A stretch of DNA of 18,636 nucleotides from a virus. Lineage: Duplodnaviria > Heunggongvirae > Uroviricota > Caudoviricetes. The DNA is taken from the IMG/VR virus record IMGVR_UViG_2547132278_000016. One strand, 5' to 3'. Shown here piece by piece: positions 2,725 to 10,206 of this stretch. The position numbers and the translations under genes are program-made. The first letter of the stretch is position 1, and every line of letters begins with the position of its first letter. The notes under the pieces were generated by a model, which was given only the letters and a program-made list of their open reading frames with translations, had not been told where the DNA came from and did not search any database.

Positions 2725-2892
2725 TCAGGCGGCTTGGTGTTCTTTCAGTTCTTCAATTCGAATATTGGTTACGTCTGCATGTGCTATCTGCGCCCACAGC
2801 ATCCAGTGGTCATAGCAGTCGCTGATGTTCTCGGCTTCGATAACTCTGTTGAATGGTTCTCCATTCCATTCACCTGTGACTCGGAAGTGCAT
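2725..2892 (-). CDS. Small hypothetical protein (55 aa) downstream of xis-side accessory region
   Basis: Hand translation of the - strand: MHFRVTGEWNGEPFNRVIEAENISDCYDHWMLWAQIAHADVTNIRIEELKEHQAA; below the 60-aa ORF-track cutoff; position corresponds to the small ORF after xis in lambda. Confidence 0.5.
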   Translation of the reverse strand: MHFRVTGEWNGEPFNRVIEAENISDCYDHWMLWAQIAHADVTNIRIEELKEHQAA

Positions 2893-2929
2893 TTATCATC
2901 TCCATAAAACAAAACCCGCCGTAGCGAGT

Positions 2930-2961
2930 TCAGATAAAAGAAATCCTCGTCAGTGCGAGGA
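2930..2961 (-). terminator. Putative intrinsic terminator (weak)
   Basis: Stem TCCTCG/CGAGGA (2944-2949 / 2956-2961) with a T-rich tract following on the - strand. Confidence 0.3.
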
Positions 2962-3134
2962 TGCTGTTCATTGCTGCTATACACTTTTTTGCTCTCAACG
3001 TAAGCGGTAGCCCATTCTGTTGGGTTGGTGCAGTTGCTTTTAGGAAATGCTATTTACCCCTTAAATGTCGGCTGAAAGAGCTAAAATCCATGCAAAAAAT
3101 TTACGCAATTTTGTGTATTATTGTGCAGTAAGTA

Positions 3135-3737
3135 ATGAGCTATTTTCTGCGCAAAAAATGGATGGTAAATTTGTCCGGGTCAGGAAAAATTTTATGGGCG
3201 CTAAACATGAAAAAAGATTCGTATCCTTATTTGATTTGCATGACAGTTTCAGGGCTGATCTTTATTTTCCTTTTCTTCTGGTGGCGGGCAGATATCTACA
3301 GGGTCACGTTTCTTAATCAGAGTATATCCCACTATTACATTCTGTTTAGCATGGGAATAGCTTTTCTGTTATCTCTGTTTTGGGTTAAGAAGGGGATAGT
3401 AAAACAAAGCGGCTGGAAGAGTCTGTCAGCATACCTTAAGGTTTATGCAGGGATGTGCATATTTGCTGGATTTTTTCTGATTATACCCCTTACGACACTA
3501 ACTTATTTTTTGCCTGGAGAGACATCGTCTTATGTTGCACCGTATCGGTATACTTCCGGTAGTTCAAAAAGTTGTTCTGGAGCTGAGGTGGATGACCCCG
3601 ATCTACATGAGAATATTCGCATTTGCTATCCGTATGGCAATTATGAGTACGATAATATTATCTATGTTGAAAAGAAAATTAATATATTAGGTGCGGTAGT
3701 GACATATGCACAGACCGCGCGTGATGATACTGAATGA
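3135..3737 (+). CDS. Hypothetical integral membrane protein (about 3 TM helices plus a ~70-aa Cys-containing C-terminal domain); accessory gene
   Basis: 200-aa ORF on the strand opposite the flanking leftward operon; hydrophobic segments LICMTVSGLIFIFLFFWW, YILFSMGIAFLLSLFWV, VYAGMCIFAGFFLIIPLTTL; AT-rich context; start uncertain (in-frame ATGs at 3135, 3162, 3207; MKKDSYPY… at 3207 looks like a typical membrane-protein N-terminus). Confidence 0.6.
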   Translation: MSYFLRKKWMVNLSGSGKILWALNMKKDSYPYLICMTVSGLIFIFLFFWWRADIYRVTFLNQSISHYYILFSMGIAFLLSLFWVKKGIVKQSGWKSLSAYLKVYAGMCIFAGFFLIIPLTTLTYFLPGETSSYVAPYRYTSGSSKSCSGAEVDDPDLHENIRICYPYGNYEYDNIIYVEKKINILGAVVTYAQTARDDTE

Positions 3738-3771
3738 TATAGTATATAGCGGGCAAGTTTTAGTTAATTTA

Positions 3772-3800
3772 TCGAGGTAATATAATTTACCTCGACTCGT
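3772..3800 (+). terminator. Putative terminator after the membrane-protein gene
   Basis: 9-bp inverted repeat TCGAGGTAA / TTACCTCGA (3772-3780 / 3787-3795) followed by a moderately T-rich stretch. Confidence 0.35.
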
Positions 3801-3947
3801 TTGTTCTGGTATTAATATTTCGCTTTACGACCGATTTTTATCTGATGATATCATGCGGTTTTCATATACTGACTTACTGTCTTTTCTCCGTTAGCGATTT
3901 TCTCCTGCTCAGCGATGATTTTATCTTTGGCTTCTAGTTAATTTCGC

Positions 3948-4169
3948 TCACTTCGAACCTCTCTGTTTACTGATAAGCTCCAGATCTTGCTGGCAACTGG
4001 CACAAGTCCGACAACCCTGAACGGCCAGTCGTCTTCGTTCATCTATCGGATCGCCACACTCACAACAATGAGTGGCAGATATAGCCTGGTGGTTCAGGCG
4101 GCGCATTTTTATTGCTGTGTTGCGCTGTAATTCTTCAATTTCTGATGCTGAATCAATTATGTCTGCCAT
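3948..4169 (-). CDS. TraR/DksA-family C4 zinc-finger protein (lambda Orf73-like)
   Basis: 73-aa ORF with CxxC…CxxC (CCECGDPIDERRRLAVQGCRTCASC), typical of TraR-like proteins. Confidence 0.75.
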   Translation of the reverse strand: MADIIDSASEIEELQRNTAIKMRRLNHQAISATHCCECGDPIDERRRLAVQGCRTCASCQQDLELISKQRGSK

Positions 4170-4483: not shown

Positions 4484-4563
4484 TGAACAAGCCCCATGTC
4501 GGCAAGCATAAGCACACAGAATATGAAGCCCGCTGCCAGAAAAATGCATTCAGTGGTTGTCAT
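4480..4563 (-). CDS. Putative 27-aa hydrophobic peptide, translationally coupled on both sides
   Basis: Hand translation MTTTECIFLAAGFIFCVLMLADMGLVQ; its ATG overlaps the stop of the upstream ORF (ATGA) and its stop overlaps the ATG of the downstream ORF (ATGA). Confidence 0.3.
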   Translation of the reverse strand: MTTTECIFLAAGFIFCVLMLADMGLVQ

Positions 4564-4751
4564 ACCTGGTCTCTCTCATCTGCTTCTGCTTTCGCCACCA
4601 TCATTTCCAGCTTTTGTGAAAGGGATGCGGCTAACGTATGAAATTCTTCGTCTGTTTCTACTGGTATTGGCACAAACCTGACTCCAATTTGAGCGAGGCT
4701 ATGTGCCATCTCGATACTCGTTCTTAACTCAACGGGAGATGCTTTGTGCAT
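4560..4751 (-). CDS. Small hypothetical protein (63 aa), lambda orf63-like by position and size
   Basis: 63-aa [29 protein letters not shown]… in the leftward operon between exo and xis. Confidence 0.55.
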   Translation of the reverse strand: MHKASPVELRTSIEMAHSLAQIGVRFVPIPVETDEEFHTLAASLSQKLEMMVAKAEADERDQV

Positions 4752-4912
4752 ACAGCTCCCCGTTTATTATTTATCTCCTCAGCCAGCCGCTGTGCTTTCA
4801 GGGGATTTCTGATAACAGAAAGGCCGGGAAATACCCAGCCTCGCTTTGTAACGGAGTAGACGAAAGTGATCGCACCTACCCGGATATTATCGTGAGGATG
4901 CTTCATCGCCAT
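4724..4912 (-). CDS. Small hypothetical protein (62 aa), lambda orf60a-like by position
   Basis: ORF starts 7 bp upstream of the exo stop and overlaps the next ORF; compact operon organisation. Confidence 0.5.
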
Positions 4913-5583
4913 TGCTCCCCAAATACAAAACCAATTTCAGCCAGTGCCTCGTCCATTTTTTCGATGAACTCCGGCACCATCTCGTCAAAACTCGCCATGT
5001 ACTTTTCATCCCGCTCAACCACGACATAATGCAGGCCTTCACGCTTCATACGCGGGTCATAGTTGGCAAAGTACCAGGCATCTTTTCGCGTCACCCACAT
5101 GCTGTACTGCACCTGGGCCATGTAAGCCGACTTTATGGCCTCGAAACCACCGAGCCGGAACTTCATGAAATCCCGGGAGGTAAACGGGCATTTCAGCTCA
5201 AGGCCATTGCCGTCACTGCATAAACCATCGGGAGAGCAGGCGGTACGCATACTTTCGTCGCGATAGATGATCGGGGATTCAGTAACATTCACGCCGGAAG
5301 TGAATTCAAACAGAGTTCTGGCGTCGTTCTCGTACTGTTTTCCCCATGCCAGCGCCTTAGCATTAACTTCCGGAGCCACACCGGTGCAAACCTCAGCCAG
5401 CAGGGTGTGGAAGTAGGACATTTTCATGTCAGGCCACTTTTTTCCGGAGCGGGGTTTTGCTATCACATTGTGAACTTCTGAAGCGGTGATGACGCCGAGC
5501 CGTAATTTGTGCCACGCATCATCCCCCTGTTCGACAGCTCTCACGTCGATTCCGGTACGCTGCAGGATAATGTCCGGTGTCAT
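4903..5583 (-). CDS. exo: Lambda exonuclease (Red alpha)
   Basis: 226-aa translation [40 protein letters not shown]… matches remembered lambda Exo; ATGA overlap with the bet stop. Confidence 0.95.
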
Positions 5584-6365
5584 GCAGCCACCTTCTGCTC
5601 AGTGGCTTTCTGTTTCAGGAATCCAAGAGCTTTCACTGCTTCGGCCTGTGTCAGTTCTGACGATGCGCGAATGTCGCGGCGAAATATCTGGGAACAGAGC
5701 GGCAATAAGTCGTCATCCCATGTTTTATCCAGGGCAATCAGCAGAGTGTTAATCTCCTGCATGGTTTCATCGTTAACCGGAGTGATGTCGCGTTCCGGCT
5801 GACGTTCTGCAGTGTATGCGGTATTTTCGACAATGCGCTCGGCTTCATCCTTGTCATAGATACCCGCAAATCCGAAGGCGAGACGGGCACACTGAATCAT
5901 GGCTTTATGCCGTAACATCCGTTTGGGATGCGACTGCCACGGTCCGGTGATTTCTCTGCCTTCGCGGGTTTTGAATGGTTCGCGGCGGCATTCATCCATC
6001 CACTCGGTAACGCAGATCGGATGATTGCGGTCCTTGCGGTAAATCCGGCATGTGCAGGATTCATTGTCCTGCTCAAAGTCCATGCCATCAAACTGCTGGT
6101 TTTCATTGATGATACGGGACCAGCCATCAACGCCCACCACCGGAACGATGCCGTTCTGCTTGTCAGGGAAGGCGTAAATTTCTTTCGTCCACGGATTAAG
6201 GCCGTACTGGTTGGCGACGATCAGCAATGCGATGAACTGCGCATCGCTGGCATCACCTTTAAATGCCGTCTGGCGAAGAGTGGTGATCAGTTCCTGTGGG
6301 TCGACAGAATCCATGCCGACGCGTTCAGCCAGCTTCCCAGCCAGCGTTGCGAGTGCTGTACTCAT
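5580..6365 (-). CDS. bet: Bet (Red beta) single-strand annealing protein
   Basis: 261-aa translation [37 protein letters not shown]… matches lambda Bet. Confidence 0.95.
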
Positions 6366-7719: not shown

Positions 7720-8301
7720 ATGAACAACTCATGGTGGCAGGAACTAATGCATTTTTTCCTGCAAGGAATGACACTTAAACAGTTGATTCATATGCTAATC
7801 ATCCTGATCATATTGATTATTGTTATGCCTGTAAGCGTAAAAGAATGGATAAACCTGCATAATCCAGAAATCCTTCCTCATTACTGGATGTATTACATCC
7901 TGTTGTTTTGCGTTAGCTATGTGCTTAACGGCGTTGTTAATTCCGCTTATCACGCTGTGACTGAAAGAATTGAGATATTCGCTGCTCAGAAGCGCAAATC
8001 TAAAGAAGAGAAATACGTGCAAGATTTGTTTGATTCGTTAACTCTTGGAGAAAGAGCGTATTTGGCATTCGCTGTAGCCGCTAATAACCAGCTAAAGACA
8101 GAAAAGGGAAGCCCTGAAGCAATCTCATTGCTCGAAAAAGGGCTTCTTATTCGGGTACCTTCTGCTACTGGATATCCTGAAATCGACCGTTTTGTTATCC
8201 CGGAACGCTATAGAAATGAGTGCTACATTAGGTTTGCTGGGAAGAAAGACAGTCTTATGGATGAACTTATCGCTCAGGATAAGCATGGCAAAAACAAGTA
8301 A
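7720..8301 (+). CDS. sieB: Superinfection exclusion protein B
   Basis: 193-aa membrane protein MNNSWWQELMHFFLQGMTLKQLIHMLIILIILIIVMPVSV… matching lambda SieB; converges on the N-like gene. Confidence 0.85.
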   Translation: MNNSWWQELMHFFLQGMTLKQLIHMLIILIILIIVMPVSVKEWINLHNPEILPHYWMYYILLFCVSYVLNGVVNSAYHAVTERIEIFAAQKRKSKEEKYVQDLFDSLTLGERAYLAFAVAANNQLKTEKGSPEAISLLEKGLLIRVPSATGYPEIDRFVIPERYRNECYIRFAGKKDSLMDELIAQDKHGKNK

Positions 8302-9927: not shown

Positions 9928-10206
9928 ATGCAACTTACAAGTACTCGCAAGAAAGCGAATGCAATCACAAGCAACATCCTGAATCGAATTGCTGTACGTG
10001 GTCAGCGAAAGGTTGCTGATGCATTAGGGATTAATGAATCGCAAATTTCGCGATGGAAAGACAGCTTTATCCCAAAGATGGCCATGCTTCTGGCTGTGCT
10101 GGAGTGGGGTGTTGAAGACGAGGAATTAGCAAAGCTAGCAAAGAAAGTAGCCATGGTGCTGACAAAAGAAAAGCCTCAAGACTGCTGCAACAGTTTTGAG
10201 GCCTGA
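9928..10206 (+). CDS. c1: CII-like transcriptional activator (P22 C1 type)
   Basis: Start at ATG 9928 with AAGGA upstream (MQLTSTRKKANAITSNILNRIAVRGQRKVADALGINESQISRWK…); HTH and the LLAVLEWGV motif shared with lambda CII; the track ORF from 9841 is an upstream extension. Confidence 0.8.
   Translation: MQLTSTRKKANAITSNILNRIAVRGQRKVADALGINESQISRWKDSFIPKMAMLLAVLEWGVEDEELAKLAKKVAMVLTKEKPQDCCNSFEA

What the first reader, a model, noticed from the sequence alone, without database searches (positions are those of the whole stretch)
2962..3800. Lone, oppositely oriented membrane-protein gene in the xis-exo accessory slot
Between xis/orf55 and the TraR-like gene, where lambda carries the dispensable ea genes, this prophage has a single 200-aa ORF on the + strand, against the leftward operon. 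It has about three predicted TM helices and a ~70-aa soluble C-terminal tail with Cys residues (SKSCSGAEVDDPDLHENIRICYPYGNYEYDNIIYVEK). The region is noticeably AT-rich and is flanked by hairpins on both sides. That is the architecture of a moron expressed from its own promoter in the lysogen, which makes it a candidate superinfection-exclusion or abortive-infection effector. I do not recognise the protein.
Basis: partly seen in the sequence, partly recalled or inferred. Interest (0 to 1): 0.7.

Follow-up and report, generated by a model that had tools for sequence, protein, structure and literature searches.

The report
Mobile prophage membrane-protein gene cassette
This is a real, self-contained cargo gene that moves between lambda-like and P2-like prophages and encodes an uncharacterised inner-membrane protein with a small domain facing the periplasm; it is a good but untested candidate for protecting the lysogen at the cell envelope.

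Summary
A + strand ORF at 3135-3737 lies against the leftward int-xis...exo operon, in AT-rich DNA (37.5% GC vs 46% for the window), with terminator hairpins on both sides.

Corrections:
- The conserved protein is 176 aa and starts at ATG 3207, not 200 aa.
- The mobile unit is window 3070-3827.

The same promoter-gene-terminator cassette lies in P2-like prophages of E. coli and Salmonella, always in the gpQ-gpA (old/tin) hotspot. Diverged copies lie at fixed chromosomal sites in Enterobacter, Klebsiella and Cedecea. The lambdoid allele is in phages 434, mEp332 and 2B8 and in 915 of 5426 complete E. coli genomes, always named "hypothetical".

dN/dS is about 0.1. An extended -10 promoter (TGnTAAnTT, 3163-3171) is conserved in seven lineages.

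The product has three TM helices (N-in, C-out). Its periplasmic domain is a five-stranded OB-like barrel with two invariant Cys.

It matches nothing in Pfam, NCBIfam or PADLOC, and is not detectably related to SieA or HK97 gp15. Rousset et al. 2022 list a homolog as untested "system #4, 3 TM".

Verdict: a genuine moron. An envelope-level protective role, most likely superinfection exclusion, is plausible but unproven (about 0.4).

The parts
2912..2931 (-). Terminator-like hairpin of the leftward operon, just upstream of orf55
   Evidence: The terminator scan finds it. RNA fold dG is -11.0 kcal/mol, z = -4.3.
2943..2962 (-). Terminator tL4 of the leftward (pL) transcript. The hairpin is palindromic, so it is also scored on the + strand. 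It marks the left edge of the slot.
   Evidence: Found by the scan. Folds at -9.5 kcal/mol. It corresponds to the feature annotated 't-L4' in phage 434 record M60848. Homology to other lambdoid phages (933W, BTP1 and others) ends at about 2989.
3070..3827 (+). Mobile cassette (moron): regulatory region, gene and terminator, shared with P2-like prophages
   Evidence: A local alignment of the window against the E. coli P2-like loci L098 and L020 spans window 3070-3827. Identity is at chance level (33%) upstream of about -130 from the ATG. GC is 37.5%.
3101..3127 (+). Three direct repeats of TTGTGCA type at a 10-bp period (TTACGCA, TTGTGTA, TTGTGCA). Putative binding array for an unidentified regulator, about -77 to -51 from the inferred transcription start.
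   Evidence: The alleles carry 1 to 4 copies at the same 10-bp period. Copies are perfect three times in L005, three perfect plus one variant in L103 and L112, and three with variation in L106. The annotators of 434 marked 3111-3124 as a CII consensus, which I consider unlikely.
3142..3159 (.). 18-bp AT-rich dyad ATTTTCTGCGCAAAAAAT over the -35/spacer position. Possible operator.
   Evidence: Found as an inverted repeat. An RTTTT-N8-AAAAY dyad is kept in the diverged alleles although its centre differs (TGCGCA, TACGTA, AAACACTT). It is not a stable RNA hairpin (z = 0.0).
3163..3171 (+). Extended -10 promoter element TGgTAAATT. The inferred transcription start is near 3178.
   Evidence: These columns are invariant in alignment A3. 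TGnTAnnnT lies 44-48 nt before the start codon in the lambdoid allele, in four P2-like allele groups (about 80%, 71%, 59% and 45% identity), and in the chromosomal Cedecea and Citrobacter copies. The simple sigma-70 scan missed it because there is no -35 match. The element is inferred, not mapped.
3207..3737 (+). Coding sequence, 176 aa, stop codon included. The longest ORF, from ATG 3135, gives the 200 aa that is annotated in RefSeq.
   Evidence: All diverged homologs start at this Met. In-frame stops lie upstream of it in L020, L098 and L005. dN/dS is 0.09-0.17.
3219..3509 (+). Membrane anchor: TM1 (residues 5-29), conserved periplasmic loop IYRxTFLN, TM2 (38-61), Lys-rich cytoplasmic loop, TM3 (70-101)
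   Evidence: AlphaFold2 model with mean pLDDT 82. Hydropathy and charge counts are: N-terminus KK, loop 2 with four Lys. I read from the sequence that the TM helices of the window allele contain no charged residue.
3513..3719 (+). Periplasmic five-stranded OB-like beta-barrel with two invariant Cys (C123 at 3573-3575, C140 at 3624-3626) and the motif CSGAxVxDPxL...IRICYPxGxY
3772..3795 (+). Intrinsic-terminator-like hairpin of the cassette, followed by CTCGTTTGTT
   Evidence: Found by the scan. dG is -12.9 kcal/mol, z = -3.8. The hairpin is kept, with substitutions, in the E. coli P2-like locus.
3893..3937 (-). Short relic resembling part of a 127-aa gene that lies next to the cassette in E. 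coli P2-like prophages
   Evidence: A 44-nt local match to L098 8712-8756. At the protein level, 11 of 16 residues are identical to that protein. This evidence is weak.

Best explanation
Shown or strongly supported: window 3070-3827 is an autonomous, horizontally mobile cargo cassette (a moron).

- It carries its own conserved extended -10 promoter (3163-3171) with upstream repeat and dyad elements.
- It has one gene (3207-3737, 176 aa) and its own terminator (3772-3795).
- It sits against the leftward early operon, between terminator tL4 and the TraR-like gene.

The product is an inner-membrane protein with three TM helices, N-terminus inside and C-terminus outside. It displays a conserved loop and a small OB-like beta-barrel, probably disulfide-bonded, on the periplasmic face of the membrane.

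Inferred:
- It is transcribed from the repressed prophage, and during lytic growth it is opposed by antisense pL transcription.
- It protects the lysogen at the envelope. Most likely it blocks passage of the DNA of superinfecting phages across the periplasm and inner membrane, working like P22 SieA or HK97 gp15 without being related to them.
- It probably acts by binding a conserved host or conduit component, because the periplasmic domain is the most conserved part.

My confidence is about 0.9 for the cassette and the topology, and about 0.35-0.4 for the exclusion function. The confidence score below is for the whole statement.
For: Real gene:
- dN/dS is about 0.1 against alleles at 59-80% identity.
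- The family has 61 representative clusters, all in Enterobacterales.

Mobile unit:
- The same cassette lies in lambdoid prophages and phages (434, mEp332, 2B8).
- It also lies in P2-like prophages of E. coli and Salmonella, almost always between portal gpQ and gpA; L109 and L111 differ.
- Its edges are at window 3070 and 3827.

Own expression signals:
- The upstream 130 nt are 75% identical between the lambdoid allele and the P2 allele, whereas synonymous sites are only 43% identical.
- TGnTAnnnT is kept at -44 to -48 in seven lineages.
- The terminator hairpin is confirmed.

Insulation and insertion:
- tL4 lies at the left edge.
- Related lambdoids carry leftward ea genes at this point.
- GC is atypical.

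Topology and fold:
- See; two Cys are invariant across the whole family.

Functional hint:
- The gpA-gpQ locus is an experimentally validated hotspot of anti-phage systems, including old and tin (PMC9122126; PMC13586616).
- A homolog is its fourth most frequent cargo: 'system #4', 470 occurrences, 3 TM.
- P22 SieA is likewise a protein of about 162 aa with three TM helices in the inner membrane, with its own annotated promoter (PMC10883804).
- HK97 gp15 likewise has mostly chromosomal enterobacterial homologs (PMC3594210).
Against: - I found no experiment on this family, and no paper mentions the Sakai locus tag ECs_0804 or accession WP_000120056.
- There is no sequence or profile similarity to SieA (hhalign probability 0.2%), to HK97 gp15 (1.2%), to any PHROG annotated as exclusion, or to any PADLOC model.
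- There is no significant structural match in the viral structure library.
- The P2 hotspot also holds non-defence cargo such as partition systems and cytolethal distending toxin.
- Diverged copies sit at the same chromosomal locus in at least five Enterobacter species, and at chromosomal, non-prophage sites in Klebsiella and in Cedecea/Pseudescherichia. This fits a general envelope function.
- The periplasmic domain is under stronger constraint than the anchor and shows no arms-race signature.
- The promoter and the topology are predictions.
Confidence: 0.4

Rival explanations
1. Lysogenic-conversion or host-physiology factor. The protein modulates an envelope process, for example a membrane sensor, a transporter or a stress response, and has no direct anti-phage role. 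Prophages carry it because it raises host fitness.
For: - Copies are syntenic across Enterobacter species. Chromosomal copies also occur in Klebsiella, Cedecea, Pseudescherichia and Citrobacter without P2 or lambda markers nearby.
- The periplasmic domain is conserved rather than diversifying.
- Conserved upstream repeats and a dyad suggest regulation by a host factor.
- The P2 hotspot also carries non-defence cargo.
Against: - The gene recurs in two different prophage accessory slots, one of them strongly enriched for defence genes.
- No partner or pathway can be named.
- Known exclusion proteins such as HK97 gp15 also have chromosomal homologs.
Confidence: 0.25
2. Orphan immunity protein. 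The periplasm-facing domain neutralises a toxin that acts in or crosses the envelope, such as a colicin or bacteriocin, or a T6SS or CDI effector.
For: - It is a small inner-membrane protein with a periplasmic domain and a likely disulfide.
- It is a solitary gene scattered over mobile elements and chromosomal islets.
- From my own knowledge: immunity proteins to pore-forming colicins are inner-membrane proteins with 3-4 TM helices, and colicin M immunity is a membrane-anchored periplasmic protein.
Against: - No toxin gene lies next to it in any context examined.
- It has no similarity to known immunity families in Pfam or NCBIfam.
Confidence: 0.12
3. Abortive-infection effector. The protein senses infection and depolarises or permeabilises the membrane, killing the infected cell.
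For: - Transmembrane proteins are common effectors in defence systems of these hotspots (PMC9122126).
- The gene lies in the hotspot.
Against: - It is a single gene with no sensor or partner in any context.
- The TM helices of the window allele contain no charged residue (read from the sequence).
- The most conserved part is periplasmic, away from cytoplasmic infection cues.
- It has no PADLOC or SieB/Rex-type match. The window has a separate true sieB at 7720-8301.
Confidence: 0.1
4. Phage life-cycle gene driven by CII. The TTGYN6TTGY match at 3111-3124, marked by the annotators of phage 434, makes it a CII-activated gene that acts during establishment of lysogeny.
For: - The CII consensus is annotated in OL657226.
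- Genuine CII sites of this phage exist at pI (2698-2711) and near pRE (9961-9974).
Against: - The pattern is not enriched in the window: 8 matches against 4.9 expected, and 20 of 200 shuffles reach 8.
- The site reads TTGT, not TTGC.
- It lies about 55-67 nt upstream of the inferred start rather than straddling a -35.
- The same repeats accompany the gene in the P2-like loci examined (L005, L020, L098, L103, L106). From my own knowledge, P2-like phages have no lambda-type CII.
Confidence: 0.05

Closest known systems
P22 SieA (superinfection exclusion A)
   Same: - It is encoded by a prophage and has its own annotated promoter.
- It is about 162-164 aa with three predicted TM helices, and is located exclusively in the inner membrane.
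- It is proposed to interfere with the DNA-delivery conduit across the periplasm and inner membrane (PMC10883804).
   Different: - There is no detectable homology (hhalign probability 0.2%).
- SieA's conserved motif FxRYPxEAxxFNK is predicted to be cytoplasmic. Here the conserved module is a periplasmic OB-like barrel with a Cys pair.
- SieA is confined to P22-like phages. This family lies in lambdoid and P2-like prophages and in chromosomes.
HK97 gp15 moron (YebO family)
   Same: - It is the archetypal moron: an independent transcription unit of atypical composition inside an operon.
- Its small inner-membrane product blocks genome entry.
- Most of its homologs are chromosomal and enterobacterial (PMC3594210).
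   Different: - gp15 has 62 aa and one TM helix, with no homology to this protein (hhalign probability 1.2%).
- It lies in the tail operon, not in the int-exo region.
P2 old and tin, the cargo of the gpA-gpQ hotspot
   Same: - Homologs of this gene occupy the same cos-proximal slot, convergent with gpA.
- Like old and tin, they are single accessory genes.
   Different: - From my own knowledge, Old is a cytoplasmic ATPase-nuclease and Tin is a cytoplasmic protein that blocks T-even replication.
- This protein is an integral membrane protein with no enzymatic domain.
- No phenotype is known for it.
Small membrane-anchored OB-fold proteins of unknown function (DUF1093/YxeA 3npp, YhhM/DUF2500 3q6c, BcR97A 2k5q)
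   Same: They are the best structural matches to the periplasmic domain, all small five-stranded OB-like barrels attached to a membrane anchor.
   Different: - There is no Pfam match to these families.
- The resemblance is in general fold, not evidence of family membership.

Membership tests
Moron (autonomous prophage cargo unit, as defined for HK97 gene 15) | Present as extra DNA relative to related phages | tested here: met
   Homology to other lambdoid phages stops at about 2989. 933W and BTP1 continue with leftward ea genes. The cassette at 3070-3827 is shared instead with P2-like prophages.
Moron (autonomous prophage cargo unit, as defined for HK97 gene 15) | Base composition differs from the surrounding genes | tested here: met
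   GC is 37.5% against 46-50% in the flanks. Only 9 of 358 windows of equal length are as AT-rich.
Moron (autonomous prophage cargo unit, as defined for HK97 gene 15) | Own promoter | tested here: inconclusive
   An extended -10 (TGnTAnnnT) is conserved at -44 to -48 in seven lineages, and the upstream region is more conserved than synonymous sites. There is no transcript mapping. The simple sigma-70 scan found no -35/-10 pair upstream of the gene.
Moron (autonomous prophage cargo unit, as defined for HK97 gene 15) | Own terminator | tested here: met
   Hairpin at 3772-3795 with a T-rich tail. It is kept in the E. coli P2-like locus.
Moron (autonomous prophage cargo unit, as defined for HK97 gene 15) | Expressed from the repressed prophage | not testable with these tools
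   This needs RNA-seq or 5' RACE on a lysogen.
P22 SieA family | Sequence or profile homology, including the motif FxRYPxEAxxFNK | tested here: not met
   hhalign probability is 0.2%. The motif is absent from the sequence. The only PHROG hit is phrog_1416, of unknown function.
P22 SieA family | Inner-membrane protein of about 160 aa with three TM helices | tested here: met
   The protein has 176 aa and three TM helices. This is a resemblance only.
P22 SieA family | Blocks DNA delivery by superinfecting phage | not testable with these tools
   This needs phage challenge and DNA-entry assays.
HK97 gp15 / YebO family | Sequence or profile homology | tested here: not met
   hhalign probability is 1.2%.
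Known anti-phage defence systems (PADLOC-DB 2.0) and SieB/Rex-type exclusion | Match to a defence-protein model | tested here: not met
   PADLOC gives no hit at E up to 1. Pfam SieB matches only the separate gene at 7720-8301.
Cargo of the P2 gpA-gpQ hotspot (Rousset et al. 2022, Table S5B, system #4) | A homolog recorded at that locus | tested here: met
   Table S5B lists a single-protein system with no Pfam domain, 470 occurrences and '3 TM'. Its sequence carries the family motifs SCSGAFVDDPDL and ICYPYGDY. My own loci confirm the position.
Cargo of the P2 gpA-gpQ hotspot (Rousset et al. 2022, Table S5B, system #4) | Demonstrated anti-phage activity | not tested
   The family motifs are absent from the stored text of that paper's table of cloned systems. 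It was therefore apparently never assayed.
NfeD-like proteins (three TM helices plus a C-terminal OB domain) | Match to the NfeD domain, and a neighbouring SPFH/stomatin gene | tested here: not met
   [not shown]

The most novel reading that the evidence does not exclude
This is a new family of single-protein, periplasm-facing phage-exclusion or envelope-immunity factors. The self-contained cassette shuttles between P2-like and lambdoid prophages, including the classical phage 434, and has settled in enterobacterial chromosomes. It acts through a disulfide-bonded OB-like domain on a conserved inner-membrane entry component. It is controlled by a host regulator that binds the 10-bp-periodic TTGTGCA repeats.
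Probability: 0.3. Interest if true: 0.7.

Novelty: new member of a known kind. Interest (0 to 1): 0.55.

Why it matters
- Abundance: the cassette is common but wholly uncharacterised. It is in about 17% of complete E. coli genomes through the lambdoid allele alone. It is also in EHEC O157:H7 prophage Sp3 (ECs_0804), and it is the fourth most frequent cargo of the E. coli P2 defence hotspot.
- Evolution: it is a clear case of one small promoter-gene-terminator unit exchanged between two unrelated temperate phage families and the chromosome.
- Testability: it is a single gene of 758 bp with its native promoter, and it is present in phages that grow on K-12 (434, mEp332). Its function can therefore be tested with very simple experiments.
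- If it does block entry: it would add a structurally new exclusion protein, and probably point to a host envelope component used during phage DNA entry.
- Annotation: the 200-aa model in RefSeq and the 90-aa profile of PHROG 1416 both appear to have the wrong start.

Tried and rejected
- **The 200-aa start (ATG 3135).** Rejected in favour of 3207. No homolog conserves the extension, and the P2-like loci have in-frame stops there.
- **The 56-aa ORF at 2961-3131, annotated in 434 and mEp332.** Judged spurious, because it spans tL4 and the cassette boundary.
- **A CII-dependent promoter at 3111-3124.** The pattern is not enriched, it is wrongly placed, and it also occurs in P2-like contexts.
- **A classical -35/-10 promoter.** None was found upstream of the gene.
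- **A known RNA family in 2850-4000.** None at E up to 1.
- **The dyad as an RNA hairpin.** It is not stable.
- **PDB sequence profile search.** Nothing below E = 0.4.
- **A 3074-aa repeat protein (P0122) in the representative search.** Set aside as unrelated: it is a nine-stretch, short-segment match to a repetitive protein.
- **Naming the regulator of the TTGTGCA repeats from memory.** I compared them with the TorR, OmpR, CRP and MarA consensus sequences. No match was convincing, so I make no claim.
Full report
**Setting**

The window opens with the end of ybhC (1-1284, -) and then a lambdoid prophage integrated at the lambda attachment site. On the - strand lie int (1419-2489), xis (2467-2685), orf55 (2725-2892), a TraR/DksA zinc-finger gene (3948-4169), orf63/DUF1382 (4560-4751), exo (4903-5583) and bet (5580-6365). 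A true sieB lies further on at 7720-8301 (+).

Window 2900-3950 is 98.9-99.9% identical to phages 434, mEp332 and 2B8. In those records the ORF is called 'putative membrane protein' or 'hypothetical protein'.

**Check of the observation**

The ORF at 3135-3737 (+), its orientation against the leftward operon and its position between orf55 and the TraR-like gene are as described.

- *Base composition.* The DNA is AT-rich: 37.5% GC for 3070-3827, against 46.1% for the window and 46-50% for the neighbouring genes. Only 9 of 358 windows of equal length are as low.
- *Hairpins on the left.* Two leftward terminator-like hairpins lie at 2912-2931 and 2943-2962. The second corresponds to the feature annotated tL4 in the old 434 record M60848.
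- *Hairpin on the right.* A + strand hairpin lies at 3772-3795, 35 nt after the stop codon (dG -12.9 kcal/mol, z = -3.8).
- *No known RNA.* No Rfam family matches the region.

**It is a real gene, and shorter than annotated**

A search of 5.8 billion proteins found 74 relatives. Those at 42-78% identity come from Salmonella, Enterobacter, Klebsiella and Cedecea. They are 169-180 aa long and all begin at the Met encoded at window 3207 (MKKDSYPYL).

In the P2-like loci the reading frame upstream of that Met contains stop codons (GGG AAA TTT TAA ... ATG in L020 and L098). The 24-residue extension of the 200-aa RefSeq model is therefore not conserved as coding sequence.

Nei-Gojobori dN/dS against alleles at 59-80% identity is 0.09-0.17. 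The C-terminal domain changes less (pN 0.08-0.16) than the membrane part (0.13-0.32).

**The protein**

Three hydrophobic segments are predicted. The AlphaFold2 model, with mean pLDDT 82, gives helices at residues 5-29, 38-61 and 70-101, followed by five beta strands.

The charge distribution supports an N-in, C-out topology:
- The N-terminus carries KK.
- Loop 2 carries four Lys.
- The C-terminal 75 residues have net charge -6.

This places loop 1 (the conserved IYRxTFLN) and the C-terminal domain in the periplasm.

Two Cys (residues 123 and 140) and one Gly are invariant even in the most distant members. I take this as an indication of a periplasmic disulfide.

The protein has no match in Pfam, NCBIfam, PADLOC or PDB sequences. 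This also holds for ten diverged members scanned against Pfam. The only PHROG hit is phrog_1416, of unknown function. Its 90-position profile covers only the last 88 residues, which probably reflects truncated gene calls in older phage records.

The family is small and confined to Enterobacterales. It has 61 clusters at 50% identity among 1.84 billion representatives. The members I looked up are named 'hypothetical' or just 'Transmembrane protein', apart from one stray IMG label. They extend to Proteus, Providencia, Erwinia and Phytobacter.

**Where the family lives**

1. *Lambdoid prophages.* The allele is at least 97% identical everywhere. It always lies 744 nt before the TraR-like gene, while the integrase module varies. 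It is present in 915 of 5426 complete E. coli genomes. These include O157:H7 Sakai prophage Sp3, where it is ECs_0804.
2. *P2-like prophages of E. coli and Salmonella.* These alleles are 45-80% identical to the window. In all but two loci they lie between portal gpQ and replication gene gpA, convergent with gpA. In L109 and L111 gpA lies upstream and the gene is near the contig end. This is the old/tin locus, an experimentally validated hotspot of anti-phage systems (PMC9122126; PMC13586616).
3. *Chromosomal sites without P2 or lambda markers.*
   - One site is the same in at least five Enterobacter species, upstream of GGDEF and AI-2E transporter genes.
   - One site is in Klebsiella.
   - One site lies near an SBP_bac_5 gene in Cedecea and Pseudescherichia.
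   - One site is in Citrobacter.

In every context it is a solitary gene.

Table S5B of Rousset et al. lists a homolog as 'system #4' of the E. coli P2 hotspot, with no Pfam domain, 470 occurrences and '3 TM'. The family motifs are absent from the stored text of that paper's table of cloned systems. It was therefore apparently never assayed.

**The mobile unit and its control region**

A local alignment of the window with the E. coli P2-like loci L098 and L020 spans window 3070-3827. The shared unit therefore includes about 137 nt upstream of the start codon, and the terminator.

Upstream identity is 75% over -130 to -1 and then falls to chance (33%). Synonymous sites of the same pair are only 43% identical, so the upstream region is under constraint.

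Its conserved features are:
- An extended -10 element, TGnTAAnTT, at 3163-3171. It is invariant in alignment A3 and lies 44-48 nt before the start codon in seven independent lineages, including the chromosomal Cedecea and Citrobacter copies.
- An 18-bp AT-rich dyad over the -35/spacer position (3142-3159). Its arms are kept although the centre differs between alleles.
- One to four direct repeats of TTGTGCA at an exact 10-bp period (window 3101-3127), about 51-77 nt upstream of the inferred start.

I infer a transcription start near 3178 and control by at least one DNA-binding protein that I could not identify.

The CII annotation placed on 3111-3124 in the 434 record is probably a chance pattern match, for four reasons:
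- The window holds 8 matches against 4.9 expected.
- The site reads TTGT rather than TTGC.
- It is badly placed relative to a -35.
- The repeats travel with the gene in P2-like phages.

**How it most likely works**

*Shown or strongly supported.* This is an autonomous cargo cassette inserted between terminator tL4 and the TraR-like gene, where other lambdoid phages carry leftward ea genes. It encodes an inner-membrane protein that presents a conserved loop and an OB-like barrel to the periplasm.

*Inferred.*
- The cassette is transcribed from its own promoter in the lysogen.
- In lytic growth, antiterminated leftward transcription would run antisense through it.
- The protein sits at the periplasmic face of the inner membrane. 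That is where phage tape-measure and ejection proteins meet inner-membrane entry factors, and where the known exclusion proteins SieA and HK97 gp15 act (PMC10883804; PMC3594210).
- The periplasmic module is the most conserved part, in phage and chromosomal copies alike. Its partner is therefore more likely a conserved host or conduit component than a fast-evolving phage protein.

I put about 0.9 on the cassette and topology and about 0.35-0.4 on an entry-blocking function.

**Rivals**

- *A non-defence envelope or fitness function, about 0.25.* This is favoured by the syntenic chromosomal copies and by non-defence cargo in the same hotspot.
- *An orphan immunity protein against envelope-acting toxins, about 0.12.* No toxin neighbour was seen in any context.
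- *An abortive-infection membrane effector, about 0.1.* There is no partner gene, the TM helices of the window allele contain no charged residue, and the conserved part faces the periplasm.
- *A CII-driven life-cycle gene, about 0.05.*
- *A spurious ORF.* This is excluded by dN/dS and conservation.

**Comparison with what is known**

It works like, or at least looks like, a SieA-type or gp15-type moron. It is not a member of either family: hhalign probabilities are 0.2% and 1.2%, and the SieA motif is absent. It is not a SieB/Rex-type protein and matches no PADLOC model.

The three-TM-plus-OB layout recalls short NfeD proteins (from my own knowledge). However, there is no NfeD match by sequence or fold and no SPFH neighbour.

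**Novelty and verdict**

The sequence is not new. It is in phage 434 and in thousands of genomes, and it has been counted as an anonymous hotspot cargo. I found no paper or annotation that assigns it a function.

What this analysis adds:
- the corrected start codon;
- the limits of the cassette;
- its exchange between P2-like and lambdoid prophages and the chromosome;
- the conserved promoter and repeat architecture;
- the predicted topology and fold.

It is a sound, easily testable candidate rather than a surprise, so I score interest at 0.55.

Noticed in passing
window 2961-3131 (+): A 56-aa ORF is annotated as 'putative membrane protein' in phage 434 (CPT_434_35) and as hypothetical in mEp332. 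It runs across terminator tL4 and across the cassette boundary at 3070, so it is probably not a gene.
   Followed up: partly
window 3101-3127; L005 5896-5922; L103, L112, L106 upstream regions: Direct repeats of TTGTGCA at an exact 10-bp period. The copy number varies from 1 to 4 between alleles. This looks like a binding array for a regulator that recognises direct repeats. I could not identify the regulator.
   Followed up: partly
window 3893-3937 (-): A 44-nt stretch resembles part of a 127-aa gene (L098 8622-9005, -) that lies beside the cassette in E. coli P2-like prophages. It may be a relic carried along when the cassette moved, which would hint at transfer from a P2-like phage into the lambdoid phage. 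The evidence is thin (11 of 16 residues identical).
   Followed up: partly
window 7720-8301 (+): A full-length sieB homolog (Pfam SieB E = 1e-25; phrog_1301). The prophage therefore already carries one recognised exclusion gene on the same strand as the finding.
   Followed up: no
window 3135-3737; PHROG phrog_1416; RefSeq WP_000120056.1: Gene models disagree. RefSeq gives 200 aa, the 434 record gives 188 aa from a TTG codon, and the PHROG profile covers only the last 88 residues. Homologs support 176 aa from ATG 3207.
   Followed up: yes
L023 (JARKOR010000073.1): A 3.5-kb contig in a 'Candidatus Nanosynbacter' metagenome-assembled genome is 97-100% identical at the protein level to this E. 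coli prophage segment (target, TraR-like gene, orf63, exo). It is almost certainly a binning contaminant.
   Followed up: no
L001 1-90 (phage 434, OL657226 23916-24614): Phage 434 carries a gene near attP that is annotated as an NleC-like type III effector metalloprotease. The EHEC prophage at the same attachment site (OI-36 / CP-933K) also carries nleC.
   Followed up: no
L004 5284-5888 and 6696-7004; L005 6703-7687: In Salmonella P2-like prophages the gene shares the hotspot with other small unknown ORFs (81, 119 and 102 aa). In one locus it lies next to a YafO-type toxin gene. These neighbours are absent from other loci, so they are separate cargo.
   Followed up: no
L020 7068-8343; L098 downstream region: In E. 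coli P2-like prophages the cassette lies next to a ParM/StbA-StbB partition module. Rousset et al. report that module as the most frequent, non-defence cargo of the hotspot.
   Followed up: no
P0122 (3074 aa, from the representative search): A giant repeat protein gives nine short matches to the region around the second conserved Cys. I judged this a repeat-inflated chance similarity.
   Followed up: partly
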